Assembly: GCA_964645125.1 (NCBI GenBank)
Contig: CAZXZC010000001.1
Location: 1 to 55,978, forward strand
Source of the DNA: an uncultured Candidatus Saccharibacteria bacterium
Lineage (GTDB): Bacteria; Patescibacteriota; Minisyncoccia; UBA6257; 2-01-FULL-56-20
Direction of reading: 5' to 3'
Length of the DNA stretch: 55,978 nucleotides
Below, one piece after another: positions 15,604-47,164 of this stretch (position 1 is its first letter; the number at the start of each line of letters is the position of its first letter). A model generated the notes under the pieces. The model saw nothing but the letters and a program-made list of their open reading frames with translations, ran no database searches and was not told the origin of the DNA. Position numbers and translations under genes: made by a program.

Positions 15604-16380
15604 CTATTTTCTTACACAAATATATTCACCAAACTCTTTGAGGGGCTGGGTGACTCTAAATCCTTGTTTTTCTAGGTGACTAATAAGCTGTTGCTTGTCT
15701 CCATGAGCTCCCATCTCCATGCTAATAGCTCCTATTTTTTTATAGATGTACTCGGGGAGGTTTAAAAATATTTCATACTCGCACCCCTCGCAATCTACTT
15801 TTATAAAATCACAGAACTCGATATTTTTTTCTTTAAAAAATGCTTCGAGTGTTGTCGCCTGCACCGAAAATGAGCCTTGTACAGTCCCGCCATACTTTGG
15901 TGCGTGATCTCTGAATGAAGATATTAGCGCGCTGTCGTAGGTGGTGTACAGCTCAAGACTTCCCTCTTTTGCAGCGACTGCTTTTTGTATTGGGATGATC
16001 TGTTTTTGATATCCGTTAATCGTGCTGTTTGCCTGCAACATCGCTTGGTTTTGAGGAAATGGCTCAAACGCGTATATGGTGGCACTGCTTGCGCCAGCCG
16101 CAAACACCGAAAACGAGCCGATGTGGGCGCCGATATCGATACCAATTTTTGCTTTTTTAATATGTGGCAAGAGACCGTCATGGATGCCGTAGAGATACTG
16201 CTCATTCACCACATACCCGTCAGCACGCTCTGTGCGCCCATCGCGCAGGAGTATGTAGCCCCCTGAGCGTGGCATAAGAACCAGTGGCTGCGGGCGAATA
16301 TTTAACCGGTATAACAAGCAGCTAAACCAGTTTTTGTAGGTTTGTATGTATCGGAAGAGCGTGAAAAATCTTTGCAGCAT
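15604..16380 (-). CDS. FkbM-family SAM-dependent methyltransferase
   Basis: The 258-aa protein has IGIDIGAHIGSFSVFAA, IYAFEP, and DFIKVDCEGCEYEI typical of the FkbM family. Confidence 0.8.
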   Translation of the reverse strand: MLQRFFTLFRYIQTYKNWFSCLLYRLNIRPQPLVLMPRSGGYILLRDGRTERADGYVVNEQYLYGIHDGLLPHIKKAKIGIDIGAHIGSFSVFAAGASSATIYAFEPFPQNQAMLQANSTINGYQKQIIPIQKAVAAKEGSLELYTTYDSALISSFRDHAPKYGGTVQGSFSVQATTLEAFFKEKNIEFCDFIKVDCEGCEYEIFLNLPEYIYKKIGAISMEMGAHGDKQQLISHLEKQGFRVTQPLKEFGEYICVRK

Positions 16381-16446
16381 TGTGTGTGTTTATAGTATCT
16401 ATTGTTCACTATAGCCATTTATTTGTCGAATAAGACACTGGCATTA

Positions 16447-16476
16447 TTGACATTGGTATTTTAATTACTAATAATT
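16447..16476 (+). promoter_or_regulatory. Candidate sigma-70-type promoter with an overlapping near-palindrome that could be the RHH operator
   Basis: TTGACA lies at 16447-16452 and a TAATAA/AATAAT box 16-17 nt downstream. The 16-nt sequence TAATTACTAATAATTA (16463-16478) is 14 of 16 self-complementary. The site is 25-55 nt upstream of the RHH gene ATG at 16502. Confidence 0.4.
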
Positions 16477-16501
16477 AGAATACTACTTTTTATTCACTTC
16501 C

Positions 16502-16714
16502 ATGAGCACACCGAAGTCTTCGTATACTACCGTTTCAATTCCCCTTCCTTTGAACAATAAAATTAAAAAACTTATTAAAAATAGTGGGTTTCGGTCGACG
16601 TCGGCGTTTGTGATATTTGTGCTTCGAGAATTGCTCACCGAACAAGAAGGCGCAGACATCATACTGGGCCATGAGCGCATACGAGAACGATTAAAAACAC
16701 TCGGCTATTTATAA
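16502..16714 (+). CDS. Ribbon-helix-helix (CopG/Arc/MetJ-like) small protein with a C-terminal LKTLGYL tail
   Basis: The 70-aa protein has an RHH-like pattern: beta strand TTVSIPLPL, helix NNKIKKLIKNSGFRS, helix TSAFVIFVLRELL. It ends in ERIRERLKTLGYL. It is the first gene of the plus-strand operon. Confidence 0.6.
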   Translation: MSTPKSSYTTVSIPLPLNNKIKKLIKNSGFRSTSAFVIFVLRELLTEQEGADIILGHERIRERLKTLGYL

Positions 16715-16744
16715 TCAACCTCTTTATTCCTTTTTATTATTTCC

Positions 16745-17017
16745 ATGGAACTTTCAGCGATTCTCGGGTGGACTGCAACAATTTTGTTTACGCTGTGCTA
16801 CATTCCCCAAATACTTAAAACTCATAAAACAAAAACGGTTGAGGGTTTGAGTTTTTTACTTTTGTTTATTTCGTTCGTGGCGAATATCGTAGCGCTTGTG
16901 TATGCCAGCATTATTCACCAAGTGCCGTTGCAGGTGAAGTACAGCTTCGCGCTCTTGTTTCTTAGCGCCACGATTATTTTGTATCTAAAAATTTGGCACA
17001 GGGAACGGAAAAAATAA
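16745..17017 (+). CDS. SemiSWEET / PQ-loop 3-TM transporter
   Basis: The 90-aa protein has three TM helices and the PQ-loop signature LFTLCYIPQILKTHKTKTVEGLS. Its size and layout are typical of bacterial SemiSWEETs. Confidence 0.8.
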   Translation: MELSAILGWTATILFTLCYIPQILKTHKTKTVEGLSFLLLFISFVANIVALVYASIIHQVPLQVKYSFALLFLSATIILYLKIWHRERKK

Positions 17018-17021: not shown

Positions 17022-18170
17022 ATGAATACACCTCTCGGCAAAACACTTGTTCAACGTGTAGCAACAGCCAAAGAAAAGGCTCGATTACTTCGACTTGCAC
17101 TCCCCTCGCTTGCCATATCAGATGAGCGTGCCACAGAAGTTCGCAACATCGCCCATGGCGTGTATAGCCCGCTAACTGGGTTTTTGGGGAAAAAAGACGT
17201 GGGTTCTGTTCTTCGCCATTGCACACTTACCACCGGTGTGTTTTGGCCCATACCGATAATTCTCGATATTTCAAAAGAGCAGGCTCTGCAATTTAAAAAA
17301 CAGAATGTTCCACGTCTTTTTTTGACCTCATCGACCGGGCGCAAACTCGCACTTTTAGATGTTTCTGAAATATACATGTTCGATAAAAAGGCGTTTTGTA
17401 TGGGCGTGTTTAAAACTACCGACACAAATCATCCGGGCGTAAAAAAAATATTCGCGCGTGGCGAGTATTTGATAGCGGGAGACATTACACTCTTGCAAGA
17501 TACCAAGGGCGAGTTTGCTCGATACAATCTTTCGCCACAGCAGGTGCGTGGTATTTTTGCCAAGCGGCACTGGAAAACCATTGTGGGATTCCATACTCGC
17601 AACGTTCCCCATCGTGGGCACGAGCATGTGCAGCGCGAAGGCCTGAAGCATGCGGATGGAATATTCGTCAATCCGTTGGTAGGGGTAAAAAAGGCGGGCG
17701 ATTTTCGCAACGAGGTAGTTTTGAAAGCATATGAATATCTTGCCCGCTATGTGCTACCGCGCGGAAAATCCTTGTTAGGCATTTTACCCCATAACCCGTA
17801 CTACGCAGGACCACGAGAAGCGCTGTTAACGGCTGTAATTCGCAAAAATTTTGGCTGCACCCATTTTATTATTGGCCGCGATCATACCGGTGTGGGCGAC
17901 TACTATAAACCCCAAGATTATGAACGGATGCTGGCGCGATACCAGGGACAGATGGGTATTACTGTTCTGCATTTTAAAGAAGCGTTATATTGCCGTGGGT
18001 GCGGCGGTATGATGCTCGAGAATCTGTGCGTGCACGATGAACATGAACGTGTTCGCCCAAGCGGCACTAAGGTTCGTGCCGCACTTGTTGCAAAAAAACA
18101 TCCACCGCACGAAATGATGCGGCCTGAAATAGTACAACTCGTGCTTCGACAAAAAACATTATTCGTATGA
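17022..18170 (+). CDS. sat: Sulfate adenylyltransferase (ATP sulfurylase)
   Basis: The 382-aa protein has the signature motifs GFHTRNVPHRGHEH and HFIIGRDHTGVG, plus a PUA-like N-terminal domain. Confidence 0.93.
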   Translation: MNTPLGKTLVQRVATAKEKARLLRLALPSLAISDERATEVRNIAHGVYSPLTGFLGKKDVGSVLRHCTLTTGVFWPIPIILDISKEQALQFKKQNVPRLFLTSSTGRKLALLDVSEIYMFDKKAFCMGVFKTTDTNHPGVKKIFARGEYLIAGDITLLQDTKGEFARYNLSPQQVRGIFAKRHWKTIVGFHTRNVPHRGHEHVQREGLKHADGIFVNPLVGVKKAGDFRNEVVLKAYEYLARYVLPRGKSLLGILPHNPYYAGPREALLTAVIRKNFGCTHFIIGRDHTGVGDYYKPQDYERMLARYQGQMGITVLHFKEALYCRGCGGMMLENLCVHDEHERVRPSGTKVRAALVAKKHPPHEMMRPEIVQLVLRQKTLFV

Positions 18171-19579
18171 ACAAAAAAACTCCCTCGCTTAAGAAAAAAG
18201 TCTTTGTGCTTGGTATCGACGGGCTCGTGCCCAGACTTGTGTTTGATCAGTATCGCGCGCACCTTCCGACCTTTAGTCGTTTAATGAAAGAAGGTGCGTA
18301 TGCGCGACTGCAGTCGACCGTTCCGCCGTCTTCTATTGTTGCGTGGACTTCAATTGCCTCTGGCAAAGACCCCGCCCAAACCGGCATTCATAGCTATACC
18401 AACCCACCACATAAATCTCGCGGCACTCGACTCACTACTTCGCAGGATGTCAGAGTTCCTTTGTTGTGGGACATTTTAACCACGCATCACAAAAAATCTA
18501 TCGCATTAAATATCCCCCTTACCTATCCGGTGCGTCCCATCAATGGATTCATGGTTAGTGACTTTTTAACTCCTTCTTTTGATACTCACAGTGTATATCC
18601 CCTTTCGTATAAAAAGAAGATCACACAGCTTCTCAAGGGTAAAGAGTACATGTTTGATGTGGCGGGGTTTACGGGATACAAAAAAATGGATTTGCAGGCG
18701 ATTGTCGATAAAACATACGAGATGACCGATATGCACTTTACGGTTGCCAATGATTTATTTCGTACCGCTGATTGGGATTTGTTTTTTATGGTTGCCATTG
18801 GCAGCGATCGTCTGCACCACATGTTCTGGCGCCATATTGACCCAGCCCACTCTCAATTCGTAAAAAATTCAAAGTATAAAAATGTGGTATTGGATTTTTA
18901 TACATATCTCGACGCAAAACTTGCGAGCTTTTTAAAGGTTCTTGATACAAACCCCCATGCAACAGTGCTTATTGTTTCTGATCATGGCATGGATAAAATG
19001 GAGCAGCGCTTTAACTTGAATGACTGGCTTATAAAAAAGGGTCACCTGACACTTACGGCAGAAGCGAAGTTACTTACGACCGCAGGCCCCAAAAGACTCG
19101 AGTATGGCCCAATGATCGACTGGAAAAAAACTGTTGCCGTCGCCAGCGGTGGATACCAAGGTCGCATTTACCTACTTGAGAAAAACAAAGAAAAACGAGC
19201 GAAGCTAAAGCGTTCAATTATGCAGCAGCTTGCTAAAATACCCGGCGCACGTGGTGAGCAACTAGAAAACCATGTGTTTGATACTGCGACACTCTACGCT
19301 CGGGTGGATAGTGCCGCACCGGACATTATTGTCTACTTCGATAATCTGCGCTATGGGGTAAATAACGATGTTGGCAATGTGGGCTTATACTCCACGGCAA
19401 CTACGGTGGGCGTTGATGACGCAGGACACGCCCCGTTAGGAAGTATTATTATTCGATCTTCCGACCTTCTCCAAACAGGAGACTTAGGCACTCTTGATAT
19501 ACTCCAGGTTGCACCAACTATCCTGAAGGCCTTGGATTTGCCGGAATACAAAAAACTGCGTGGCGCCCCCCTTCTCTAA
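18167..19579 (+). CDS. Alkaline-phosphatase-superfamily protein (type I phosphodiesterase / nucleotide pyrophosphatase family)
   Basis: The 470-aa protein has VFVLGIDGLVP, STVPPSSIVAWTSIASG (putative nucleophile region) and VSDHGM. Its start overlaps the sat stop by 4 nt. Confidence 0.75.
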   Translation: MNKKTPSLKKKVFVLGIDGLVPRLVFDQYRAHLPTFSRLMKEGAYARLQSTVPPSSIVAWTSIASGKDPAQTGIHSYTNPPHKSRGTRLTTSQDVRVPLLWDILTTHHKKSIALNIPLTYPVRPINGFMVSDFLTPSFDTHSVYPLSYKKKITQLLKGKEYMFDVAGFTGYKKMDLQAIVDKTYEMTDMHFTVANDLFRTADWDLFFMVAIGSDRLHHMFWRHIDPAHSQFVKNSKYKNVVLDFYTYLDAKLASFLKVLDTNPHATVLIVSDHGMDKMEQRFNLNDWLIKKGHLTLTAEAKLLTTAGPKRLEYGPMIDWKKTVAVASGGYQGRIYLLEKNKEKRAKLKRSIMQQLAKIPGARGEQLENHVFDTATLYARVDSAAPDIIVYFDNLRYGVNNDVGNVGLYSTATTVGVDDAGHAPLGSIIIRSSDLLQTGDLGTLDILQVAPTILKALDLPEYKKLRGAPLL

Positions 19580-19597: not shown

Positions 19598-20665
19598 ATG
19601 AAACATCCTCACAAAAAACTCGCGACCCATATTTTGTGCACTATCGGCCCCACATCCGAATCAAAGACTGTTATTTCTGGACTCGTAAAAGCGGGCGTGC
19701 AGGGGCTGCGCATTAATTTAAGTCATACTCCACCCGAAAAGGCCCTTGCCATTGCACGCACCATTCGCAGTGTTTCAAAAACTGTTCCACTTATTATTGA
19801 TACTCAAGGAAAAGAAACACGCGTTGGTTCACTTGCTGGATCAATTACCATTTCAACAGGAGATACGCTTACTATTACACACTCTCATACTCACCCACTT
19901 CCCGCGCTTCATATTAGTCGATCCGATGTGTTTGACGTGGTGCGTCGAGGTGATCGATTCTCTCTGGATGATAACGCTCTTGAGTTTAAAATTATGAATA
20001 TTGATCGTGAGCATTCTCACCTTACTGTCGTTGCGGTAAAGGGCGGTGTGGTTGCAGCACCAAAAAACATAAAGTTTAAAAAGCCGTTTGAACCAAAATA
20101 TCCGCTCACTGACCGTGATCTTGAGACAATCAAGCTCCTTGCCCCCCTGGGCATTACCGAAGTTTCGCTTTCCTATGTGACCGATGCTGCCGATATTAAG
20201 CACTTGCGGGCGATGGTGTCGAAGAACATTCAGATTTCATCGAAGATTGAAAAAATGGCTGCCATTACCAACTTAGATGAAATTATTCAAGGCAGCGATA
20301 GAGTATTTATTGACCGTAACGATTTAGGTACAGAAATTGGGTATGAAAAAATACCACTCGTGCAAAAATTTATTACTGCCCGTTGCATTGCCGCTGAGAA
20401 GCCAGTGTTTGTGGCAACTCATCTACTAGAGAACATGATTACCAAAGACAAGCCGACCCGCGGTGAGGTAAACGATATTATCAATTTAGTACTTGATGGG
20501 GTACATGGCCTTATTCTTTCTTCTGAAACAGCTGTTGGGAAAGATCCGGTACGAATTGTAAAAACATTACAAACCTTGATCGCGCAAGCAGAATTTATTC
20601 TTCATAAAACCAAAGGTGCGGTGGCAGACACTTTGGCGCGACTCGATACGCTTCACTATCTCTAA
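19598..20665 (+). CDS. pyk: Pyruvate kinase with A and B domains only; the C-terminal domain is absent
   Basis: The 355-aa protein keeps the PK catalytic motifs: ILCTIGP, RINLSH, IIDTQGKETR, SSKIEKMAAITNLDEII, FIDRNDLGTEI, ATHLLENM and PTRGEVNDIINLVLDGVHGLILSSETAVGKDP. It ends about 110-120 aa short of typical PKs. Confidence 0.85.
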   Translation: MKHPHKKLATHILCTIGPTSESKTVISGLVKAGVQGLRINLSHTPPEKALAIARTIRSVSKTVPLIIDTQGKETRVGSLAGSITISTGDTLTITHSHTHPLPALHISRSDVFDVVRRGDRFSLDDNALEFKIMNIDREHSHLTVVAVKGGVVAAPKNIKFKKPFEPKYPLTDRDLETIKLLAPLGITEVSLSYVTDAADIKHLRAMVSKNIQISSKIEKMAAITNLDEIIQGSDRVFIDRNDLGTEIGYEKIPLVQKFITARCIAAEKPVFVATHLLENMITKDKPTRGEVNDIINLVLDGVHGLILSSETAVGKDPVRIVKTLQTLIAQAEFILHKTKGAVADTLARLDTLHYL

Positions 20666-20677: not shown

Positions 20678-21208
20678 ATGAAAACACAGGCCGCCTGCAC
20701 CGTTTGGTTTACTGGCTTATCTGGTTCGGGTAAAACCACGCTGGCTCGGCGTTTGAAACGCGCGTTGTCACGCCGAGGACACACTGCAGTCATTTTAGAT
20801 GGTGATGAGATTCGTAAAACCATTTCAAAAGATTTGGGTTTTTCAAAAAAGGATATTGCAGAAAATCATCGGCGCATTTTGGAGCTATGCAAAAAACATG
20901 CCCAGGCTGGCACCATTGTTATTGTGGCAACTATATCCCCTCACCGAGCAGTTCGGGCGCGTGCGCGCGCACAACTACCGCGGTTTGTAGAAGTATATTG
21001 CAACGCATCCCTTGATACGGTTCGGGCGCGCGACGTGAAGGGTCATTATAAAAATGTTGCATCGGGCGCACTGCGACAGTTTATTGGAGTGCATACCCCG
21101 TACGAAGCCCCCAAAGATCCCGAACTTACTCTGGCCACCCACGCAGAACCCCCCACCGTATCACTGAAAAAAATATTAGGATTTCTGGAAACTTGCGACT
21201 ATATTTAA
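20678..21208 (+). CDS. cysC: Adenylylsulfate (APS) kinase
   Basis: The 176-aa protein has the P-loop VWFTGLSGSGKTTLA, followed by ILDGDEIR and the LGFSKKD segment. Confidence 0.93.
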   Translation: MKTQAACTVWFTGLSGSGKTTLARRLKRALSRRGHTAVILDGDEIRKTISKDLGFSKKDIAENHRRILELCKKHAQAGTIVIVATISPHRAVRARARAQLPRFVEVYCNASLDTVRARDVKGHYKNVASGALRQFIGVHTPYEAPKDPELTLATHAEPPTVSLKKILGFLETCDYI

Positions 21209-22285: not shown

Positions 22286-22362
22286 TAACTACCCCTTGGT
22301 TTTGCAAACCGTCTTCTTTGTTTTTTTCTCAAAACGCTCTATACTGGTTCGGTACTTATTCT

Positions 22363-24811: not shown

Positions 24812-24819
24812 GCTCTTTA

Positions 24820-26016: not shown

Positions 26017-26170
26017 GCTTACCACTGTACCACCGGCACCTTCTAATTTCAAACAAATGAATGCACCATCTTAAATAGAAATATTGACAAAAGTTATAAA
26101 TATAATATAGCATTGTTCCAGTTTGATTATTTACAAGGTATCGAACATTTTTGCAAAAGGAGACTATGGT

Positions 26171-26773: not shown

Positions 26774-26788
26774 TTTCGAAAATATTAC

Positions 26789-26828
26789 GGGGAGTGAGTT
26801 GATTGACTCACTCCCCTTTTGCTTTTTT
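26789..26828 (+). terminator. Rho-independent terminator
   Basis: An 11-bp stem pairs ggggagtgagt (26789-26799) with actcactcccc (26806-26816). It is followed by ttttgctttttt. Confidence 0.85.
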
Positions 26829-26855
26829 GAAGCATACCAAAGTCACTGGTCTGTT

Positions 26856-26890: not shown

Positions 26891-26925
26891 GAAATTTTTT
26901 ACTGTGACATTTAGTTGGCAATAAG

Positions 26926-36865: not shown

Positions 36866-36867
36866 GC

Positions 36868-38334: not shown

Positions 38335-38370
38335 CGTGGGCTCCATGCTCTTTCTATTACAAAAAAAGAA

Positions 38371-41577: not shown

Positions 41578-42545
41578 TGGCGTGTTTTTTTTAACAACTG
41601 ATCTTTTTGTATCGCTGTTGTGCCCCCAATCCCCACAACAACACCAGCCGCACTATTTGCAATCATTGCAGCCGTTTGCAGATCTGATCCCGCAGCAAGC
41701 GCCAGTGCCACAACGGCTACAACCGTATCTCCTGCCCCCGTGACATCAAAAACACTTGAGGCGTTCGTTGGAATATGGGTCAAGGAGCCAGTATCTTTTC
41801 TTACAATGGTCATTCCTTTGTTTGATCGCTTTAATACCACAGAACTTCTAAATCTCGCGGAAAGTTCCCGAGCGGCTTTTTCGGCATAGGAGTCATCTTC
41901 AACCCCATATCCAGTCAATTCAAAGGCTTCTTTTTGATTTGGAAACACCGCATATACATCTTTAAATAATTTCGCATTTTTTGGTTTAAAATCAGCCAAT
42001 ATTTTTTTGTTGAAGATTTTTTTTATTTCTTTCATCACGCGCTCGCTTATCATTCCTTTTGCATAATCAGAAATGACAACAACATCGGCGTCTTTGTGCT
42101 TTTGTATCTGCTCCACTATCTTTTCTCTGTATGGAGACAGCACCTCGTGTGTATGCTCCGTATCTATGCGCGCAATCTGTTGCTGGCCAACTACAATTCT
42201 TGTTTTTGTAGTTGTTGGTCTACTGGTATCGCATACCAGCTCATGCATGACGCCAATCTTATCACATAAATTTTTTATTATATCTCCCTCCGGATCGTGT
42301 CCAACTATACCGCACAAAACTGCTACACCTCCTAATGAGGCGATATTTGAAGCAACATTCGCGGCACCCCCCAATATATCACGATTGTTTTGTTTTTTTA
42401 TTACTGGAATCGGTGCTTCCGGGGATATTCGATCTGAGGTGCCAAGCAGATATCGATCAAGCATCACATCTCCTATTATCAAAATTTTTCTTCCCTGAAA
42501 GCCCTTTATAATTTCTGCAAAATTTTTCTTCCTTGACGTGGTCAT
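41574..42545 (-). CDS. hldA: D-glycero-beta-D-manno-heptose-7-phosphate kinase (RfaE domain I / HldA type, PfkB family); no adenylyltransferase domain
   Basis: The 323-aa protein has ILIIGDVMLDRYLLGTSDRISPEAPIPV and DVTGAGDTVVA. It ends after the kinase domain. Confidence 0.85.
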   Translation of the reverse strand: MTTSRKKNFAEIIKGFQGRKILIIGDVMLDRYLLGTSDRISPEAPIPVIKKQNNRDILGGAANVASNIASLGGVAVLCGIVGHDPEGDIIKNLCDKIGVMHELVCDTSRPTTTKTRIVVGQQQIARIDTEHTHEVLSPYREKIVEQIQKHKDADVVVISDYAKGMISERVMKEIKKIFNKKILADFKPKNAKLFKDVYAVFPNQKEAFELTGYGVEDDSYAEKAARELSARFRSSVVLKRSNKGMTIVRKDTGSLTHIPTNASSVFDVTGAGDTVVAVVALALAAGSDLQTAAMIANSAAGVVVGIGGTTAIQKDQLLKKTRQ

Positions 42546-42572: not shown

Positions 42573-43133
42573 TTATTTTTCATCAATATATTCACACCAC
42601 GCATGATATATTATTTCGTGAACTTCTTGAATTCGTGCGGTTTCAATGCTCGGCACAGCAATACATACGTCTATATTGTTTTTTTCTTCCATTCCTTTTT
42701 TGCCGGTTAATAAAATCGTTTTCATTTTATTTTTTTTTGCACTCGCAAGTGCGGCTCGTATATTAGGGGACGATCCGCTTGTTGAGATCGCCACCACCAC
42801 ATCATCAAACTTCCCCAAGCCTTCGAGCTGCCGCGCGAATATCTGCTCAAAACCATAGTCATTGCCAATGGCGGTAAGCGCTGAAGTATCCGTCGTTAAT
42901 GCTATAGCGGCAAGCGGTTTTCGTTCAATGCGATATCGTCCAGTCAGCTCTGCGGAAAAATGCTGAGCGTCGGCTGCGGAGCCACCATTTCCACACACAA
43001 ATACGGTTTTGCCACCTTCAACCGCTGCTCGAATAAGGTCAGCAGCCTTCTGGATGGGCTCTGCGAGCGTTTCGCTTGCTTGAATAGCAACTTGTATATG
43101 GCGCGCAAATGCTTCGCGGATACTACCTTGCAT
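42573..43133 (-). CDS. gmhA: Phosphoheptose isomerase (SIS domain)
   Basis: The 186-aa protein has VFVCGNGGSAADAQHFSAELTGRY and ISTSGSSPN. Confidence 0.92.
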   Translation of the reverse strand: MQGSIREAFARHIQVAIQASETLAEPIQKAADLIRAAVEGGKTVFVCGNGGSAADAQHFSAELTGRYRIERKPLAAIALTTDTSALTAIGNDYGFEQIFARQLEGLGKFDDVVVAISTSGSSPNIRAALASAKKNKMKTILLTGKKGMEEKNNIDVCIAVPSIETARIQEVHEIIYHAWCEYIDEK

Positions 43134-43182
43134 GGCGTCATTGTATCCTTTTTTAGTGGTATTTCAAAGCGTCCCGCTCCTT

Positions 43183-44136
43183 CTACGAGCGTTTTGCGGT
43201 GGTTGTTTTTATATACCACTCTATCGTGTTTTTTAATCCTGTTTGAAAATCAGTTTTTGCTATAAACCCAAACTCTTGCCGTGCGCGGGTAATATCGAGC
43301 ATTCTACGGGGCTGTCCATCTGGCTTTGTAGTATCCCATACAACCTCTCCTTCATACCCTACTAATTGTTTTATTACTCCCACTAATTCTTTTATAGAAA
43401 TTTCAGAGCCTGAGCCGATGTTTACGGGTTCTGCTTTATCATATTGTATCGCGGCAGCCACAATTGCCTCGGCTGCATCTTCGACATATAAAAACTCACG
43501 CGTGGCACTACCAGTCCCCCATACCTCTACTTTTGTTTTTCCTGTTTGCTTTGCTTCAAATACTTTCTTAATCAGTGCTGGGATAACATGTGAACTTTCC
43601 GGGTTAAAGTTATCGCCTGGTCCGTATAAATTTACTGGTAAAAGATAAATCGCATTAAATCCGTATTGCTGTCGGTATGATTGCGCCTGTACGAGCATCA
43701 TTTTTTTGGCTAACCCATAGGGAGCATTTGTTTCTTCAGGGTATCCATTCCAGATATCATCTTCCCTGAATGGGACGGGGGCAAATTTGGGATAGGCGCA
43801 AATAGTTCCAATCGCCACGAATTTTTGTACATTTGCTTGGCGGGCAGCCTCTATGAGTTGCGCTCCCATAATCAGATTGTCGTAAAACAACTCTCCTGGG
43901 TGCTCGCGATTAAAACCAATACCACCAACCTTCGCGGCCAAGTGAATAACAATATCCTGATTTTTCACTGCGCTTTGACAATTTTCCCATATACGCAAAT
44001 CGCATTCGGCGGCACGTGGAACATATATATTTTCCTTTGTTGCCCCACTTTCTAAAAGCTTTTTTATTATCTGAGTACCCAAAAATCCATTGCCTCCCGT
44101 TACTACTATTTTTTTACTCCGTATATCTATCTGCAT
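43183..44136 (-). CDS. fcl: GDP-L-fucose synthase
   Basis: The 317-aa protein has [18 protein letters not shown] and [23 protein letters not shown]. Confidence 0.92.
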
Positions 44137-44152
44137 CGATAATTGCGCGCGC

Positions 44153-45175
44153 TTATGGAATGTTTATTTTTTGCGCATCACCGTGCAATCCATGCTGTTC
44201 AAGATCGTGCTTTACCATTCGTGAAACCAACCCATCAAGCATAACTTTTGGCTCCCATCCAAGTACGCGCTTTGCCTTTGAGGCGTCGGCAATAAGGTCC
44301 TCTACTTCTGATGGCCGGAAATAGCGTGGGTCAATTTCTACATACTCTTCCCACTTTGAAATACCAATCACCCCAAATGCCTTTTGTAAAAAATCTCGTA
44401 TCGAGTGGGTTTGGCCGGTACCTATTACAAAATCTTGCGGGACATCTTGTTGCAACATTCGCCACATCGCCTCGACATATTCGGGCGCATATCCCCAATC
44501 GCGGCGAGCATCAAGATTTCCTAAGTATAATTTTTTTTCTTTTCCCGCGAGTATTCTTGCAATTCCCTTGGTAATTTTGCGGGTTACAAAGGTTTCTCCT
44601 CGACGCTCTGATTCATGGTTAAAAAGAATTCCATTTACCGCAAACAGCCCGTATGCTTCGCGATAATTTTGAGTAACATAATAGGAAAATACCTTTGCAA
44701 CTCCATACGGACTTCGGGGGTGAAATACTGTTTGTTCATTTTGCGGTGGCGGTGTTGCCCCAAACATTTCAGAGCTTGATGCTTGATAAAATTTAACGTT
44801 TTTTCCAGTATCTTTTTGATAGTCTTTTATTGCTTCTAAAATTCTCAGTGTCCCTAAGCCAGTAATTTCTGCCGTGTACTCTGGTATATCGAAACTTACT
44901 CGTACATGAGACTGTGCACCAAGATTATAAATTTCGTCTGGATGAATTTTATAAAGTAATTTTCGAAATGTGTTGCCATCTGCTAAATCACCAAAATGCA
45001 AAACCAATCTTTGGTTTTGTTCGTGTGGATCTTGATACAGATGATCGATGCGAGTTGTATTGAGTGTTGAGGCACGGCGAATAACCCCGTGAACTTCGTA
45101 CCCCTTCGAAAGTAGGAGTTCGGCCAAATAAGAGCCATCTTGACCGGTTATGCCAGTTATAAGGGCTTTTTTCAT
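44153..45175 (-). CDS. gmd: GDP-mannose 4,6-dehydratase
   Basis: The 340-aa protein has [33 protein letters not shown] and [15 protein letters not shown]. Confidence 0.96.
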
Positions 45176-45191
45176 TTCTGTATCTTATACC

Positions 45192-45812
45192 CTACTGTGT
45201 ACCACCTGTCTTGAGTTGTTGCAATAGGGCTGCAGTACGAGTATCTGCTGGCCATTTCTGCACTATTTTTTCTCCTATTTCTATGGCCTTGTCTTTCTGG
45301 CCCTGGGCACGATAAATACCAAACAACCCATACAGGCTCTGTGGTCTGCCTGGACCTAGCTTTTCGCTTAACTCAAAATAGCGCTGTGCTTGTTCAAGAT
45401 ATTCTTTTTTCCCCGTTTGGTCATACGCGGTCGTATGAATGAGCCCGAGCACATATGCGTCTTGCAGAAAGCTCATCCCCTTCTCCCTTTCGATGATCGG
45501 ATCAAAGTAGCTTCTCAAGAACGAGATAACTTCTTTTGTTACTTCAGCCTGCTTCCCGTTTGTTTGCACTAAACTCAATACGACGCTTGCAGTGTTTCGC
45601 ACTACCTCCTCTTGTCCAATCGGAGAGGCTGCATCAAGCGCGGGAATTAGCTTGTTTTCAAATTCTGCTAGCGATTTTGCATCTCTTACAGAGCGCAGTG
45701 CTTCTATAAAAGCAATAGATTTGTTATACGGAAGATACGAGCCCCAATATATTCCAACAGCAATCAAGCACGCGGATCCGATGGCAATAATCTTTTTAAC
45801 TTCGGTGTTCAT
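45192..45812 (-). CDS. Membrane-anchored hypothetical protein with a TPR-like C-terminus
   Basis: The 206-aa protein has an N-terminal TM helix (IIAIGSACLIAVGIYWG) and a C-terminal TPR-like helix pair (AQRYFELSEKL..YGLFGIYRAQGQKDKAIEIGEKIV). Confidence 0.5.
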   Translation of the reverse strand: MNTEVKKIIAIGSACLIAVGIYWGSYLPYNKSIAFIEALRSVRDAKSLAEFENKLIPALDAASPIGQEEVVRNTASVVLSLVQTNGKQAEVTKEVISFLRSYFDPIIEREKGMSFLQDAYVLGLIHTTAYDQTGKKEYLEQAQRYFELSEKLGPGRPQSLYGLFGIYRAQGQKDKAIEIGEKIVQKWPADTRTAALLQQLKTGGTQ

Positions 45813-45817
45813 AGTGG

Positions 45818-47164
45818 TTATTGGTTTGATTTTACGCGATGCACGACCATTGTTGTTTTTGAATAGAATAATACTAATCCTGAAACCATTATGAGATTGA
45901 TATATATTGGCAACACGTCAAATAGCGCAAGCGCTTGTACAAAATAGGCACTCATTAACCCAAGCAGCAGCGGTTGAGCCACGTGATGCTGCTTCATATT
46001 TCTTATAACTGACCACGCAAGTGTACCCAAAAACCCAAGATACGAAAGCGTGCCAATAATTCCTGTTGTTGAGAGATAATCGAGTAGTATATTGTGCGCG
46101 CGATCAAACCAGGTTTCGGTAGTTTGATTGGGGTTAAAGTGCCGAGGATCAAAGTGTTTATCAAATGCCGCACTAAAGTTTTCTGGTCCCCAACCAAAAA
46201 ATGGATACTCTTTAAACCCTGCCCATGCCGAACCCCAAGTCCATATGCGAGTCTGGAGACTATCTGCTCCAATATTGATATCGAGTAATCGAGCCCCTGG
46301 TATTTTTTTGTCAGCAATAGTGCCACGGATACTATATAACCCTCCATATATAAGAATGCACGCTCCAAGAAATCCAAGCAGAGGGAGTCGTGCTTTTTTT
46401 ATTTTCAATGCTGCGAATAAACCACCTACTGCTACCCCCGCAATCAGACCTACAAACGCACCTTTTGTTTGCGAAAGGATAAAGAAGAGAAAAAAGAATG
46501 CGATAAGTGTTCCATACGCAATTTTTGTCCAAATATTTTTTGCTTCCCCTAATAACCACCCAGCATATGCCATCACAAACATAAGGTAGGGTGCAACATA
46601 CGCGGGGTTGCCCAGCGATCCCTGAAATCGATTCCCGGGACCAAACAATTCCTTTATAAGATTGAATTTGTCAGCACCATATGGCCCAATAAACCCAGGT
46701 TGTCCAGCTGCAGCAAGTACCCCGTAAAGTATCATTCCTACCCCTGCTGCGAGTGATACCCACAATGCCATACGCCACTTTTCTAGGGTGTCGAATAAAA
46801 GTGCCGCCAAGAAAAACCAGGCGTAGTAATGAACCATCTGAAATGCGCCTTCGCCACGTTCGAAGTTTGACCAAATTGCCCCGTGTGGATTATCGGCAAG
46901 TATCGCAGCCAGACAAAACGCAGCAACAAACAGAGACAGGCCTAGAAATACTGGGTGTCGCTTTATTGCATCAAAGCGCTTTTTGAACTCCCCGGCTGGT
47001 GCTTCAAACCCCCACCACAACACAGTTGCGATACCAGCTAAACCTACACAGGTTCGAAAAAAGTAATATTTACCTCCAATAAACGGGAAAAATGTGCCGG
47101 TTGCCACAATAAGTACACTTAAAAGCGCGCCATACAAGCAATACTGGGCAATAGTTTTAAACAT
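45818..47164 (-). CDS. O-antigen ligase / Wzy-like polytopic membrane protein
   Basis: The 448-aa protein has about 10-12 TM helices. Its Wzy_C-like core (ILSQTKGAFVGLIAGVAV) is followed by an extracytoplasmic loop containing WGSAW..FKEYPFFGWGPENF. Confidence 0.8.
   Translation of the reverse strand: MFKTIAQYCLYGALLSVLIVATGTFFPFIGGKYYFFRTCVGLAGIATVLWWGFEAPAGEFKKRFDAIKRHPVFLGLSLFVAAFCLAAILADNPHGAIWSNFERGEGAFQMVHYYAWFFLAALLFDTLEKWRMALWVSLAAGVGMILYGVLAAAGQPGFIGPYGADKFNLIKELFGPGNRFQGSLGNPAYVAPYLMFVMAYAGWLLGEAKNIWTKIAYGTLIAFFFLFFILSQTKGAFVGLIAGVAVGGLFAALKIKKARLPLLGFLGACILIYGGLYSIRGTIADKKIPGARLLDINIGADSLQTRIWTWGSAWAGFKEYPFFGWGPENFSAAFDKHFDPRHFNPNQTTETWFDRAHNILLDYLSTTGIIGTLSYLGFLGTLAWSVIRNMKQHHVAQPLLLGLMSAYFVQALALFDVLPIYINLIMVSGLVLFYSKTTMVVHRVKSNQ

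What the first reader, a model, noticed from the sequence alone, without database searches (positions are those of the whole stretch)
15604..47164. A 31-kb Wzx / ligase-type glycan island combining fucose, heptose, a methylated amino-deoxysugar and sulfate activation
About 33 consecutive genes from 15604 to 47164 relate to glycan assembly. They include a WbaP-type initiating transferase, a Wzx flippase, an O-antigen-ligase/Wzy-like protein and three GT2, one GT9, one GT10 and one GT11. Also present are gmd/fcl, gmhA plus a heptose kinase, and an aminotransferase with isomerase, epimerase, reductase and C-methyltransferase. Three further methyltransferases (FkbM, class I and O-MT-like), a sulfatase-like enzyme and a complete PAPS-forming module add to this. 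Together they predict a heavily decorated surface glycan that is methylated, aminated, fucosylated and possibly sulfated. This is striking in what appears to be a reduced-genome bacterium. No nucleotidyltransferases (ManC/RmlA type) are in the window, so precursor activation must be encoded elsewhere or obtained from a host.
Basis: partly seen in the sequence, partly recalled or inferred. Interest (0 to 1): 0.7.

Follow-up and report, generated by a model that had tools for sequence, protein, structure and literature searches.

The report
Glycan island with four-enzyme sulfate-activation cassette
This is a real 31-kb surface-sugar biosynthesis island, probably from a tiny-genome (Patescibacteria) bacterium, and its sulfate-activating genes sit in a widely conserved but undescribed cassette with two extra enzymes (a nucleotide-pyrophosphatase-like protein and a truncated pyruvate kinase) that probably help drive the costly synthesis of the sulfate donor PAPS.

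Summary

Corrections:
- The "sulfatase" has the sulfatase fold but lacks the formylglycine motif.
- No canonical sulfotransferase is in the window, so sulfation of the glycan is inferred, not shown.
- ADP-heptose genes are incomplete, and no sugar nucleotidyltransferase is present.

The interesting part is the operon PQ-loop, sat, NPP-like alkaline-phosphatase-family protein (AP), C-domain-less pyruvate kinase (PK), cysC, GT10, NUDIX (16745-22980).
- sat-AP-PK(-cysC) recurs in other Patescibacteria, and AP-PK-sat-cysC in DPANN archaea.
- sat-AP-cysC recurs in Armatimonadota, Chloroflexota, Acidobacteriota, Asgard archaea and Bathyarchaeia.
- sat or cysC lies within 3 kb of AP in 27 of 80 species-representative loci.
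- Fusions occur in nearly every combination: AP+PK+sat, sat+AP, cysC+AP, PK+cysC, PK+sat, AP+PK.

Best reading: a PEP-driven PAPS generator. AP would remove PPi and PK would recycle ADP, as in the four-enzyme in-vitro PAPS recipes. The enzyme roles are inferred. I found no description of this cassette in the literature I searched.

The parts
15604..16380 (-). FkbM-family methyltransferase; left edge of the glycan locus, abutting uvrC (14295-15602).
   Evidence: Pfam PF05050, 64 bits.
16745..17017 (+). 90-aa PQ-loop / SemiSWEET-like membrane protein. It is the first gene of the sulfate operon and a candidate transporter; the substrate is unknown and sulfate is only a guess.
   Evidence: Pfam PF04193, 56 bits. 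There is a 4-nt gap to sat. Homologs sit before sat in L002 (72% identity) and L089 (67%), and one lies beside an AP module in a Woesearchaeota locus, L014.
17022..18170 (+). sat, sulfate adenylyltransferase (ATP sulfurylase, PUA_2 plus catalytic domain).
   Evidence: PF01747 251 bits and PF14306 152 bits. NF003166 425 bits (cutoff 387) and TIGR00339 332 bits (cutoff 323).
18167..19579 (+). AP: a cytoplasmic NPP-like alkaline-phosphatase-superfamily enzyme of 470 aa. Proposed role: remove the PPi made by sat. Its start overlaps the sat stop by 4 nt.
   Evidence: PF01663, 115 bits. The bimetal site is complete: D18, S/T56, D214, H218, D272, H273 and H421 are invariant, and there is no signal peptide. 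The AlphaFold model has pLDDT 95 and its best folds are NPP/ENPP/PhnA, with TM-score (normalised to the target) 0.65-0.68 and 11-15% identity. It is linked or fused to sat, cysC and PK.
19598..20665 (+). Short pyruvate kinase of 355 aa: A barrel plus B cap, no C-terminal regulatory domain. Proposed role: PEP-dependent recycling of ADP to ATP for the cassette.
   Evidence: PF00224, 219 bits. TIGR01064 scores 257 bits, below the 306 cutoff. It aligns to residues 3-340 of G. stearothermophilus PK 2e28; RxNxSH, K-I-E, D of 'RNDLG' and T of 'ATH' are kept, but the motifs read DRNDLG and ATHLLENM instead of ARGDLG and ATQMLDSM. Fusions exist with AP, sat and cysC.
20678..21208 (+). cysC, adenylyl-sulfate (APS) kinase.
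   Evidence: PF01583, 169 bits. TIGR00455 179 bits (cutoff 139).
21230..22285 (+). GT10-type (alpha-1,3/4) fucosyltransferase-like glycosyltransferase, in the same operon as the sulfate cassette.
   Evidence: PF00852, 51 bits. It aligns to H. pylori FucT 2nzw/5zoi, including the E-K nucleotide-sugar motif. Homologs lie next to the cassette in L088 and L089.
22318..22980 (+). NUDIX hydrolase, last gene of the operon. Substrate unknown; candidates are a GDP-sugar or an adenine nucleotide by-product.
   Evidence: PF00293, 30 bits. NUDIX genes also flank the cassette in L002 and L088.
22989..26052 (-). DegT-type sugar aminotransferase (22989-24098), truncated RmlD-like reductase (24095-24811) and NDP-hexose C-methyltransferase (24820-26052).
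   Evidence: PF01041 367 bits; PF04321 93 bits; PF08484, PF13489 and PF08421.
26123..27624 (.). 216-aa ORF with no family (26123-26773, +) and an HD-like phosphohydrolase homolog (26926-27624, -).
   Evidence: No Pfam or NCBIfam hit. 26926-27624 is 32-36% identical to Pfam-HD proteins of L002, L088 and L089.
27738..30177 (-). SDR epimerase/reductase, FdtA-type 3,4-ketoisomerase, RmlC-like cupin epimerase and class I methyltransferase. The block is collinear with L089.
   Evidence: PF01370, PF05523, PF00908 and PF08241. Identity to L089 is 67%, 54%, 75% and 74% respectively.
30319..32198 (.). NanM-type sugar O-methyltransferase (30319-31305, +) and GT2 (31314-32198, -).
   Evidence: TIGR04371 85 bits (cutoff 44). 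PF00535 105 bits.
32228..32974 (-). Weakly DUF218-like protein of unknown role.
   Evidence: PF02698, E = 0.003, below cutoff.
32922..34295 (-). Sulfatase-fold protein without the formylglycine motif (Ser53 in S-P-H-S-F), with no signal peptide by inspection. It is a partner of the sulfate cassette in related genomes. It is a candidate for the missing sulfuryl-transfer or editing step; this is a hypothesis.
   Evidence: PF00884, 118 bits. The model has pLDDT 90 and its best folds are S1 carbohydrate sulfatases, TM 0.6-0.68. It lies divergently adjacent to PQ-sat-AP-PK in L002, L088 and L089.
34590..39366 (.). Assembly core: GT2 (34590-35438, -), WbaP-like polyprenyl-phosphate sugar-phosphate transferase (35534-36865, +), Wzx flippase (36868-38334, +) and GT2 (38371-39366, -).
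   Evidence: PF00535, PF02397 (215 bits), PF01943 (104 bits) and PF00535 (145 bits).
39401..42545 (-). GT11 (alpha-1,2-fucosyltransferase family), GT9 (heptosyltransferase family) and a heptose-7-phosphate kinase-like PfkB protein.
   Evidence: PF01531 118 bits, PF01075 90 bits, PF00294 131 bits. TIGR02198 317 bits (cutoff 345).
42573..45175 (-). GmhA-like sedoheptulose-7-P isomerase, Fcl-like GDP-fucose synthase and Gmd (GDP-mannose 4,6-dehydratase).
   Evidence: NF010546 223 bits (cutoff 276); NF047922 303 bits (cutoff 500); TIGR01472 518 bits (cutoff 415).
45192..47164 (-). Protein with a hydrophobic N-terminal stretch and weak TPR hits (45192-45812), and a Wzy_C-domain protein (45818-47164) that could be a polymerase, a ligase or an O-oligosaccharyltransferase. 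This is the right edge of the locus, abutting rny (47184-48710).
   Evidence: Weak TPR hits. PF04932, 63 bits.

Best explanation
The region is a Wzx/Wzy_C-dependent surface-glycan biosynthesis locus of a probable Patescibacteria (CPR) bacterium.

Sugar supply:
- Gmd and Fcl would supply GDP-fucose for the GT10 and GT11 transferases.
- GmhA, the heptose kinase and GT9 form a partial heptose branch.
- A set of enzymes would make a C-methylated 3-amino-6-deoxyhexose: FdtA, DegT, the C-methyltransferase, RmlC-like, RmlD-like and the SDR. It plausibly starts from the Gmd product, because no other 4,6-dehydratase is present.
- Three further methyltransferases decorate the product.

Sulfate operon: embedded in the locus is a seven-gene operon, PQ-loop, sat, AP, PK, cysC, GT10, NUDIX. 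Its core is a four-enzyme sulfate-activation cassette:
- sat makes APS and PPi in a very unfavourable equilibrium.
- The NPP-like AP enzyme removes PPi (inferred).
- cysC phosphorylates APS to PAPS, giving ADP.
- The C-domain-less pyruvate kinase uses PEP to turn ADP back into ATP (inferred).
- The net reaction is ATP + PEP + sulfate -> PAPS + pyruvate + 2 Pi.

PAPS (or APS) would then sulfate the fucosylated glycan. The enzyme for this is not identified. The formylglycine-less sulfatase-fold protein is the only candidate that is conserved alongside the cassette in related genomes.

What is shown and what is inferred:
- Shown: the gene families, the operon structure, and the conservation and fusions of the cassette.
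- Inferred: the catalytic roles of AP and PK, the sulfation of the glycan, and the identity of the amino sugar.
For: Families:
- Intergenic gaps in the operon run from -4 to 32 nt.

Conservation of the cassette:
- Patescibacteria L002 has the sulfatase-like gene next to PQ, sat, AP, PK and cysC.
- Liptonbacteria L088 and L089 have the sulfatase-like gene next to (PQ), sat, AP and PK, with GT10 nearby.
- L089 is collinear with 12 window genes at 36-75% identity.
- DPANN loci L003 and L011 have AP, PK, sat, cysC.
- sat-AP-cysC stands alone among housekeeping genes in Acidobacteriota and Chloroflexota, and also occurs in Armatimonadota.
- sat or cysC lies within 3 kb of AP in 27 of 80 species-representative loci, and in 17 of 42 with full flanks. 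By my estimate, a single-copy gene should fall that close to a random gene in well under 1% of cases.

Fusions:
- P0231 is AP+PK+sat; P0230 and P0069 are AP+PK; P0250 is sat+AP.
- P0256, L064 (the cultured Desulfotomaculum copahuensis) and L083 are AP+cysC.
- P0147 is PK+cysC and P0195 is PK+sat.

Role of AP, by elimination:
- Asgard loci have sat, DHH, AP, cysC. DHH is the family of the characterised non-canonical PAP phosphatase (PMC10322725).
- L089 carries an Inositol_P (CysQ-type) gene.
- L056 carries a Sulfotransfer_3 gene between sat and cysC.
- AP is also fused to another PPi-releasing enzyme, NTP_transferase (P0232).
- AP has the fold and full metal site of nucleotide pyrophosphatases.

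Precedent for the roles:
- In-vitro PAPS synthesis needs pyrophosphatase, and uses PK/PEP to relieve ADP inhibition of APS kinase (PMC9885120; PMC10322725).
- The catalytic Lys, Glu, Asp and Thr of PK, and its B domain, are retained.
Against: - No enzyme activity has been tested.
- NPP-type enzymes usually cleave nucleotide diesters or anhydrides, and PPi hydrolysis by this clade is unproven. AP could equally hydrolyse PAP, APS or PAPS.
- L088 and L089 lack cysC within 10 kb, so PK cannot there be explained by ADP from APS kinase unless cysC lies elsewhere in the genome.
- Short PKs also occur in glycan clusters without sat (L085, L086).
- Their PEP-site motifs differ from canonical PKs (DRxDL, T[NH]LLE), so the substrate may differ.
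- AP is also fused to a GT2 and to a methyltransferase, which the PPi idea does not explain.
- No sulfotransferase is in the window, so the fate of the PAPS is unknown.
- The taxonomic assignment rests on island genes only.
Confidence: 0.55

Rival explanations
1. The AP (NPP-like) protein is a non-canonical PAP (3'-phosphoadenosine-5'-phosphate) phosphatase that detoxifies the by-product of sulfotransfer. It would be a functional analogue of CysQ, not a pyrophosphatase.
For: - There is a precedent: a phosphoesterase gene next to ATPS and APSK turned out to be a new PAP phosphatase (PMC10322725).
- AP is fused to APS kinase in P0256, L064 and L083.
- AP has a phosphoryl-transfer active site.
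Against: - Asgard loci carry a DHH-family gene, the family of that PAP phosphatase, between sat and AP.
- L089 carries a CysQ-type Inositol_P gene.
- The DPANN variant modules carry a PHP gene next to AP.
- AP is fused to sat and to NTP_transferase, which make PPi rather than PAP.
- L088 and L089 have sat-AP-PK without cysC, so there is no obvious source of PAP.
- The closest folds are diesterases and pyrophosphatases, not monoesterases.
Confidence: 0.2
2. One of the two alkaline-phosphatase-superfamily proteins is itself the missing sulfotransferase: the NPP-like AP, or more likely the formylglycine-less sulfatase-fold protein. It would move the sulfuryl group from APS or PAPS to the glycan through a covalent sulfo-Ser/Thr intermediate.
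For: - No canonical sulfotransferase is found in the window, nor is one listed in the 20-kb islands of L002, L088 and L089.
- The sulfatase-fold protein is divergently adjacent to the cassette in all three loci.
- It has a carbohydrate-sulfatase fold with Ser at the nucleophile position.
- It has no signal peptide by inspection of the N-terminus, so it would be cytoplasmic, where a hydrolytic sulfatase makes little sense.
- L088 and L089 lack cysC, which hints at APS as the donor.
Against: - To my knowledge no AP-superfamily sulfotransferase is known.
- Cys/Ser-to-Ser sulfatase variants are normally inactive.
- Other AP-containing loci do carry canonical sulfotransferases: L004 and L056. L085, a short-PK locus without AP, carries one too.
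- The sulfotransferase may simply be encoded elsewhere in the genome.
Confidence: 0.12
3. The linkage is incidental to the glycan. sat and cysC serve sulfur assimilation or general PAPS supply, the PK is the cell's ordinary glycolytic pyruvate kinase, and AP is a general phosphatase. They merely sit inside a glycan locus.
For: - In several phyla sat-AP-cysC sits among housekeeping genes, not glycan genes.
- Papers on CPR and DPANN treat sat as a sulfur-cycle marker.
- The PK retains its catalytic residues.
Against: - Repeated gene fusions among all four proteins and AP-PK adjacency in seven loci (L002, L003, L005, L011, L088, L089) plus the window argue for one functional unit.
- The window operon continues directly into GT10 (21-nt gap).
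- No PAPS/APS reductase or sulfite reductase is in the window.
- CPR relatives keep the cassette inside syntenic glycan islands.
Confidence: 0.08
4. The activated sulfate ends up in something other than an O-sulfated glycan. Examples are a sulfonated sugar such as sulfoquinovose, a sulfolipid, or a sulfated small molecule.
For: - The SDR at 27738-28679 has a partial C-terminal match of 69 bits to UDP-sulfoquinovose synthase.
- The consumer of the PAPS is unidentified.
Against: - The match covers only the C-terminal third, far below the 575-bit cutoff, and the best full-length hits are ordinary NDP-sugar epimerases and dehydratases.
- Sulfoquinovose synthesis needs sulfite, and no PAPS/APS reductase is present.
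- The operon links the cassette to a GT10 glycosyltransferase.
Confidence: 0.05

Closest known systems
Wzx/Wzy-dependent O-antigen, capsule or S-layer-glycan gene clusters (for example enterobacterial O-antigen loci, and the Fuc3NAc S-layer glycan locus of Aneurinibacillus thermoaerophilus with FdtA/FdtB)
   Same: - An initiating polyprenyl-phosphate sugar-phosphate transferase, a Wzx flippase and a Wzy_C protein.
- Several glycosyltransferases.
- Nucleotide-sugar modification genes clustered together (Gmd/Fcl, FdtA, DegT).
- Mildly lower GC3 in part of the locus.
   Different: - No chain-length regulator (Wzz) and no nucleotidyltransferase in the locus.
- The probable host is a Patescibacteria bacterium, where the acceptor of the glycan (lipid, protein or wall) is unknown.
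- It carries a sulfate-activation operon and four methyltransferases.
Dedicated PAPS supply for sulfated glycoconjugates: rhizobial NodPQ with NodH; mycobacterial CysDNC with Stf0; Sam35 (PAPS synthase) with Sam10 (fucose 2-O-sulfotransferase) in saccharomicin biosynthesis (PMC13291958)
   Same: A second, pathway-dedicated copy of the sulfate-activating enzymes is encoded inside a glycoconjugate biosynthesis cluster. In saccharomicin the target is a fucose residue.
   Different: - Those systems contain a recognisable PAPS-dependent sulfotransferase, and none was found here.
- They have no AP-family or PK-like partner.
- NodPQ and CysDN use the GTPase-coupled CysD/CysN sulfurylase rather than sat.
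The ATPS-APSK-DHH PAP-phosphatase locus of Methanothermococcus thermolithotrophicus (PMC10322725)
   Same: - sat-type ATP sulfurylase and APS kinase are clustered with a non-canonical accessory phosphoesterase.
- The paper shows that PPi removal limits the rate and that PAP must be removed.
   Different: - The accessory enzyme there is DHH family and acts on PAP.
- Here it is NPP-like, and in Asgard loci it co-occurs with a DHH gene.
- That pathway is assimilatory, whereas this one sits in a glycan locus and adds a pyruvate kinase.
In-vitro four-enzyme PAPS generation: ATP sulfurylase, APS kinase, inorganic pyrophosphatase and pyruvate kinase/PEP (PMC9885120; assay in PMC10322725)
   Same: The same four catalytic functions are proposed: two synthetic steps, PPi removal, and PEP-driven recycling of ADP that relieves ADP inhibition of APS kinase.
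   Different: - That is a laboratory recipe with unrelated commercial enzymes (family I PPase, full-length PK).
- Here the functions would be encoded in one operon or even one polypeptide.
- The PPase role would be taken by an NPP-like protein. This is a working-like analogy, not homology.
Nucleotide pyrophosphatase/phosphodiesterases (Xanthomonas NPP, ENPP1/3) and phosphonoacetate hydrolase PhnA
   Same: The AP-superfamily fold, a Thr/Ser nucleophile and six metal ligands, all conserved.
   Different: - Only 11-15% identity.
- About 80-90 extra residues.
- Cytoplasmic rather than secreted.
- A genomic association with sat and cysC that is not known for NPPs.
S1 formylglycine-dependent carbohydrate sulfatases
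   Same: The overall fold (TM 0.6-0.68) and the metal-binding Asp and His residues.
   Different: - No C/S-x-P-x-R maturation motif (it reads S-P-H-S-F).
- No signal peptide by inspection.
- Encoded beside sulfate-activating genes rather than glycan-degrading genes.
Helicobacter pylori Lewis-antigen fucosyltransferases (GT10 FutA/B, GT11 FutC)
   Same: A GT10 plus GT11 pair together with gmd and fcl, predicting alpha-1,3/4- and alpha-1,2-fucosylated epitopes.
   Different: - Only the C-terminal nucleotide-sugar domain of the GT10 is recognisably similar (51 bits).
- There are no heptad repeats.
- Acceptor specificity is unknown.

Membership tests
Wzx/Wzy-dependent glycan assembly locus | Initiating polyprenyl-phosphate sugar-phosphate transferase | tested here: met
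   35534-36865, PF02397 Bac_transf, 215 bits.
Wzx/Wzy-dependent glycan assembly locus | Wzx-type flippase (Polysacc_synt / MOP superfamily) | tested here: met
   36868-38334, PF01943 104 bits and PF13440 79 bits.
Wzx/Wzy-dependent glycan assembly locus | Wzy polymerase or ligase (Wzy_C domain) | tested here: met
   45818-47164, PF04932, 63 bits. Polymerase, ligase and O-oligosaccharyltransferase cannot be told apart by sequence.
Wzx/Wzy-dependent glycan assembly locus | Chain-length regulator (Wzz) | tested here: not met
   No PF02706 hit in any window ORF. This feature is optional for the family.
PAPS synthesis (sat + cysC) | ATP sulfurylase above the curated cutoff | tested here: met
   NF003166 425 bits (cutoff 387); TIGR00339 332 bits (cutoff 323).
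PAPS synthesis (sat + cysC) | APS kinase above the curated cutoff | tested here: met
   TIGR00455 179 bits (cutoff 139).
Glycan sulfation system | PAPS-dependent sulfotransferase (Sulfotransfer_1-5, Stf0, NodH type) | tested here: not met
   No Pfam sulfotransferase hit in 48 ORFs, even at E <= 1 for the ORFs with no assigned family. phmmer with sulfotransferases from L004 and L085 against all six-frame ORFs gave nothing better than E = 0.25.
Pyruvate kinase | PK barrel (A + B domains) with catalytic Arg/Asn/Ser, Lys, Glu, Asp and Thr | tested here: met
   PF00224, 219 bits. The alignment to 2e28 shows RINLSH, KIE, the D of DRNDLG and the T of ATH.
Pyruvate kinase | C-terminal alpha/beta (PK_C) domain and the equivalog score | tested here: not met
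   No PF02887. The protein is 355 aa, against about 475 aa for canonical PKs. TIGR01064 scores 257 bits, below the 306 cutoff. The subfamily motifs DRxDL and T[NH]LLE differ from ARGDLG and TQMLES.
Pyruvate kinase | ADP + PEP -> ATP + pyruvate activity | not testable with these tools
   Needs an enzyme assay.
Nucleotide pyrophosphatase/phosphodiesterase (NPP, PF01663) | AP-superfamily fold with Thr/Ser nucleophile and two-metal site | tested here: met
   PF01663, 115 bits. Foldseek to NPPs gives E = 1e-18. D18, S/T56, D214, H218, D272, H273 and H421 are conserved in 24 of 24 sequences.
Nucleotide pyrophosphatase/phosphodiesterase (NPP, PF01663) | Hydrolysis of nucleotide pyrophosphate or phosphodiester bonds (or PPi) | not testable with these tools
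   The closest solved relatives share only 11-15% identity.
Formylglycine (S1) sulfatase | Sulfatase fold | tested here: met
   PF00884, 118 bits. Foldseek to S1 sulfatases gives TM 0.6-0.68.
Formylglycine (S1) sulfatase | C/S-x-P-x-R formylglycine maturation motif | tested here: not met
   The motif is S53-P-H-S-F. Pro+2 and Arg+4 are absent in the window protein and in the consensus of its closest homologs.
GT10 fucosyltransferase | GT10 C-terminal GDP-fucose-binding domain | tested here: met
   PF00852, 51 bits (cutoff 24). It aligns to 2nzw/5zoi residues 211-300.
GT11 fucosyltransferase | Full-length GT11 domain | tested here: met
   PF01531, 118 bits, covering 277 of 298 profile positions.
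GDP-L-fucose pathway | Gmd and Fcl, plus a supply of GDP-mannose (ManC) | tested here: inconclusive
   Gmd scores 518 bits (cutoff 415). Fcl is the best hit but scores 303 bits, below the 500 cutoff. No ManC or NTP_transferase is in the window.
ADP-heptose pathway | GmhA, HldA/HldE kinase, GmhB phosphatase and HldC adenylyltransferase | tested here: not met
   GmhA-like scores 223 bits (cutoff 276) and the kinase-like protein 317 bits (cutoff 345). There is no GmhB or CTP_transf_like gene in the window, and tblastn with the L002 HldC-like protein finds nothing. The relatives L002 and L089 do carry CTP_transf_like.

The most novel reading that the evidence does not exclude
Bacteria and archaea widely use a sulfate-activation machine with more than the two textbook enzymes. 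An NPP-like alkaline-phosphatase-family enzyme is an integral third component of sat/cysC; the family counts 6,301 clusters (at 50% identity) with E <= 1e-30. A truncated pyruvate kinase is a fourth component in CPR and DPANN.

In CPR bacteria that lack any classical sulfotransferase (and, in some loci, an adjacent cysC), the formylglycine-less sulfatase-fold protein next to the cassette would be a new kind of glycan sulfotransferase. It would work through a covalent sulfo-serine intermediate, possibly directly from APS.
Probability: 0.12. Interest if true: 0.9.

Novelty: new variant of a known kind. Interest (0 to 1): 0.62.

Why it matters
- **Textbook pathway.** Sulfate activation is taught as a two-enzyme pathway pulled by a housekeeping pyrophosphatase. 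A dedicated, often fused, NPP-like partner found across many phyla, plus a PEP-driven ATP-recycling partner in ultra-small cells, would show how cells with very tight energy budgets afford PAPS.
- **Practical use.** It could also supply natural single-operon or single-polypeptide PAPS generators for enzymatic sulfation.
- **Metagenome annotation.** sat and 'atsA' genes in CPR and DPANN metagenomes are currently read as sulfur-cycling markers (PMC12153355, PMC8091004). They would be reinterpreted as parts of a surface-glycan sulfation system. That bears on how these probably host-attached (episymbiotic) organisms present themselves to hosts, with fucosylated, methylated and perhaps sulfated epitopes.
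- **Open question.** The missing sulfotransferase becomes a concrete, testable problem with a named candidate.
- **Tractable entry point.** A cultured organism, Desulfotomaculum copahuensis, carries an AP-APS-kinase fusion.

Tried and rejected
- **Naming the source organism.** Exact-sequence look-ups of 10 window proteins returned no names. The contig is a 55,978-bp NCBI record and also appears in Logan run SRR8797213. Taxonomy therefore rests on best hits of island proteins.
- **Finding a hidden sulfotransferase.** Pfam at E <= 1 on the ORFs with no assigned family, phmmer with two sulfotransferases from related loci against all six-frame ORFs, and a regex for the PAPS-binding (5'-phosphosulfate-binding) loop motif all gave nothing.
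- **AP-PK fusion in P0035/P0037.** These 812-820-aa proteins turned out to be AP fused to an unknown domain homologous to the 357-aa ORF of L004, not to PK. True AP+PK fusions are P0069, P0230 and P0231.
- **Identifying the DPANN partner proteins.** Pfam and PDB sequence searches of the L004 357-aa and 185-aa proteins found nothing. My impression of NTase-like and HIT-like motifs is unverified.
- **UDP-sulfoquinovose synthase reading of the SDR at 27738-28679.** Rejected. Only a partial 69-bit C-terminal match, and the protein has STTSLY rather than the dehydratase motif (and the sequence).
- **A true 4,6-dehydratase other than Gmd.** None found. This led to the inference that the amino-sugar branch may start from the Gmd product.
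- **Mobile-element or tRNA borders.** There is only one tRNA-Leu, at 53048, outside the locus.
- **Literature.** Searches for COG3379, for Patescibacteria with sat and sulfotransferase, and for DPANN with sat and cysC found no description of the cassette.
- **Upstream gene of the PK-cysC fusion (L087, 557 aa).** No family found.

Full report

Yes. Between 15604 and 47164 there are 33 non-overlapping ORFs.
- The assembly core is a WbaP-like Bac_transf protein (35534-36865, 215 bits), a Wzx flippase (36868-38334, 104 bits) and a Wzy_C protein (45818-47164, 63 bits).
- There are three GT2, one GT9, one GT10 and one GT11. The GT10 scores 51 bits, and its C-terminal domain aligns to H. pylori FucT 2nzw/5zoi. 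The GT11 scores 118 bits over almost the whole profile.
- Gmd passes its equivalog cutoff (518 against 415 bits). Fcl, GmhA and the heptose-7-phosphate kinase are best hits just below their cutoffs.
- The amino-deoxysugar set comprises DegT, FdtA, RmlC-like, RmlD-like, an SDR and an NDP-hexose C-methyltransferase.
- Three further methyltransferases are present: FkbM, class I and NanM-type sugar O-MT. The NanM-type scores 85 bits against a cutoff of 44.
- sat and cysC both exceed NCBIfam cutoffs.

The flanks are housekeeping genes. On the left are ClpB, HtrA, SHMT, FolD, CTP synthase and UvrC. On the right are RNase Y, iPGM, a substrate-binding protein and RNase J.

**2. Corrections to the interpretation**

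The heptose branch also lacks GmhB and HldC: tblastn with the HldC-like gene of a relative finds nothing.
- The 'sulfatase-like enzyme' (32922-34295) has the S1 sulfatase fold. Its model has pLDDT 90, and Foldseek gives TM 0.6-0.68 to carbohydrate sulfatases. The formylglycine position, however, is Ser53 within S-P-H-S-F. The Pro and Arg of the C/S-x-P-x-R maturation motif are missing in the window protein and in the consensus of its closest homologs. It has no signal peptide by inspection. It is not a canonical sulfatase.
- No sulfotransferase exists anywhere in the window. A sulfated glycan is therefore an inference from the presence of PAPS synthesis inside the locus.
- Only the right half (34.6-47.2 kb: WbaP to Wzy_C) is compositionally distinct, with GC3 0.378 against 0.454 +/- 0.032 in the flanks. 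The left half, at 0.444, is not. No tRNA or Rfam element marks the borders.
- The organism could not be named. The best hits of three island proteins are Patescibacteria, Liptonbacteria and Parcubacteria MAGs.

**3.

sat and cysC are not adjacent. They belong to a tightly packed seven-gene operon with gaps of -4 to 32 nt:
- PQ-loop protein (16745-17017)
- sat (17022-18170)
- a 470-aa PF01663 alkaline-phosphatase-superfamily protein, here called AP (18167-19579)
- a 355-aa pyruvate kinase lacking the C-terminal domain, here called PK (19598-20665)
- cysC (20678-21208)
- GT10 (21230-22285)
- NUDIX (22318-22980)

AP is cytoplasmic by inspection. It has an invariant NPP-type two-metal site with a Thr/Ser nucleophile and models at pLDDT 95. 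Its nearest folds are nucleotide pyrophosphatase/phosphodiesterases and PhnA, at only 11-15% identity.

PK keeps the A barrel and B cap and the catalytic Arg/Asn/Ser, Lys, Glu, Asp and Thr. It belongs to a subfamily with altered PEP-site motifs ([IV]DR[GNYF]DL and A[TS][NH]LLE instead of VARGDLG and ATQMLES), and it falls below the PK equivalog cutoff.

**4. The cassette is conserved and repeatedly fused**

Conservation in CPR and DPANN:
- A Patescibacteria MAG (L002) has the sulfatase-like gene next to PQ-loop, sat, AP, PK and cysC, inside a syntenic glycan island.
- A Liptonbacteria MAG (L088) and a Logan contig (L089) have the sulfatase-like gene next to (PQ-loop), sat, AP and PK, with GT10 nearby. 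No cysC lies within 10 kb of either.
- L089 is collinear with twelve window genes at 36-75% identity.
- DPANN archaea (Diapherotrites L003, Iainarchaeum L011) have AP, PK, sat, cysC next to glycan genes.

Conservation in other phyla:
- A scan of one genome per GTDB species found at least 556 AP relatives.
- In the 80 best loci, sat or cysC lies within 3 kb of AP in 27 cases, and in 17 of the 42 loci with full flanks. The usual order is sat-AP-cysC.
- This order occurs in Armatimonadota, Chloroflexota, Acidobacteriota, Asgard archaea and Bathyarchaeia. AP adjacent to or fused with cysC, without sat, occurs in Omnitrophota, Nitrosopumilaceae and the cultured Desulfotomaculum copahuensis.
- In Acidobacteriota and Chloroflexota the trio sits among housekeeping genes, so AP belongs to sulfate activation itself and not to a particular glycan.

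Size of the family and fusions:
- An exhaustive HMM search gives 6,301 clusters (at 50% identity) with E <= 1e-30.
- P0231 is AP+PK+sat in one 1,151-aa protein.
- P0230 and P0069 are AP+PK.
- P0250 is sat+AP.
- P0256, L064 and L083 are cysC+AP.
- P0147 is PK+cysC.
- P0195 is PK+sat.
- Every pair except sat+cysC was found fused here, so the four proteins form one functional unit.

**5. How it most likely works**

The ATP sulfurylase equilibrium is very unfavourable. It is pulled by PPi hydrolysis and APS phosphorylation, and APS kinase is inhibited by ADP. Laboratory PAPS synthesis therefore adds pyrophosphatase and pyruvate kinase/PEP (PMC9885120; PMC10322725). The cassette offers the same four functions.

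For AP, the alternative roles are taken by other genes in related loci:
- Asgard loci read sat, DHH, AP, cysC. DHH is the family of the characterised non-canonical PAP phosphatase.
- L089 has a CysQ-type gene.
- An Anaerolineaceae locus has a Sulfotransfer_3 gene between sat and cysC.
- AP is also fused to another PPi-releasing enzyme, NTP_transferase.

I therefore favour AP as the PPi-removing partner, and PK as the PEP-driven ADP-to-ATP recycler. The net reaction would be ATP + PEP + sulfate -> PAPS + pyruvate + 2 Pi.

These roles are inferred, and several points count against them:
- L088 and L089 lack an adjacent cysC.
- Short PKs also occur in glycan clusters without sat.
- The PK motifs differ from canonical ones.
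- AP is also fused to a GT2 and to a methyltransferase.

**6. The rest of the pathway (inference from family knowledge)**

- Gmd and Fcl give GDP-fucose for GT10 and GT11.
- No second 4,6-dehydratase exists. The SDR at 27738-28679 has STTSLY rather than the dehydratase motif. The FdtA/DegT/C-methyltransferase/RmlC-like/RmlD-like branch may therefore start from the Gmd product, giving a C-methylated 3-amino-3,6-dideoxyhexose.
- The Wzy_C protein could be a polymerase, a ligase or a protein O-oligosaccharyltransferase.
- The consumer of PAPS is unknown. The formylglycine-less sulfatase-fold protein is the only candidate that lies divergently adjacent to the cassette in all three CPR relatives.

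**7. Novelty and verdict**

The island itself is a new member of a familiar kind of locus. The sat-AP-PK-cysC cassette, and the broader sat-AP-cysC trio, appear undescribed in the literature I could search. Papers on CPR and DPANN mention sat and 'atsA' only as sulfur-cycle markers.

I rate it a new variant of a known kind, with interest 0.62:
- The finding as written is mostly correct annotation.
- It contains a well-supported, testable lead about how sulfate activation is organised across many phyla.
- It also raises a concrete open question: where is the sulfotransferase?

Noticed in passing
L004:10001-14950; also L006, L008-L010, L012, L014, L016-L019 (Woesearchaeota and other DPANN loci): A second conserved AP module lacks sat, cysC and PK. 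It consists of AP (often fused to an unknown domain of about 350 aa), a paralog of that domain (357 aa), a 185-aa protein and a PHP-family phosphoesterase. The two unknown proteins match nothing in Pfam or the PDB. By eye they show a 'GKSDIDIIVYG' and an 'HFHVKLFP' motif (NTase-like and HIT-like?), which is unverified. This could be an alternative nucleotide or sulfate activation route.
   Followed up: partly
L064:10001-12334 (Desulfotomaculum copahuensis LMa1, NZ_LYVF01000166.1); L083:5260-7200 (Nitrosopumilaceae MAG): Single polypeptides fuse the NPP-like AP domain to APS kinase (777 aa and 646 aa). The first is in a cultured bacterium, which makes the AP function experimentally accessible.
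   Followed up: partly
L085:8001-9026 and L086:8001-8966: Short, C-domain-less PK homologs also sit in polysaccharide clusters with no sat or cysC within 8 kb. One is next to Wzz with a weak Sulfotransfer_1 gene nearby. The other is in a marine Tara cluster with DegT, CTP_transf_3 and NTP_transferase. The short-PK subfamily may therefore serve glycan biosynthesis more generally.
   Followed up: partly
window 29103-29549 (and its homolog L089:3600-4049): This 148-aa RmlC-like cupin matches both PF00908 (dTDP_sugar_isom, 71 bits) and PF14667 (Polysacc_synt_C, 51 bits) over the same residues. A soluble cupin cannot be a membrane domain, so the PF14667 hit looks like a profile artefact.
   Followed up: no
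window 14295-15602: UvrC is only 435 aa. GIY-YIG, UVR and the RNase H-like endonuclease domain are present, but no C-terminal helix-hairpin-helix region was reported. It ends 1 nt before the first gene of the island.
   Followed up: no
window 403-3795: A 1,130-aa protein whose only recognisable part is an N-terminal peptidoglycan-binding domain (residues 76-133). It is possibly a large surface or wall-associated protein.
   Followed up: no
window 53048-53130 and 55477-55830: tRNA-Leu(CAG) lies just upstream of an RNase J gene that has a long N-terminal extension (731 aa, GTG start). A 23S rRNA intervening-sequence protein gene lies at the contig end.
   Followed up: no
window 26123-26773 and 22318-22980; 26926-27624: The island carries a NUDIX hydrolase, a 216-aa ORF with no assigned family, and an HD-like phosphohydrolase. 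NUDIX and HD genes recur in the syntenic islands of L002, L088 and L089 (L088 has two HD and three NUDIX genes). They may handle nucleotide by-products such as PAP, AMP or GDP-sugars.
   Followed up: partly
window 27738-28679: The C-terminal third of this SDR gives a 69-bit partial match to UDP-sulfoquinovose synthase (cutoff 575). This is probably generic SDR similarity, but it is notable in a locus that activates sulfate.
   Followed up: partly
window 9620-10975, 28676-29143, 32228-32974, 39401-40351: The mechanical TTG starts make these ORFs overlap their neighbours by 40-110 nt. The Pfam matches begin 17-52 residues in, so the true starts are probably downstream.
   Followed up: no
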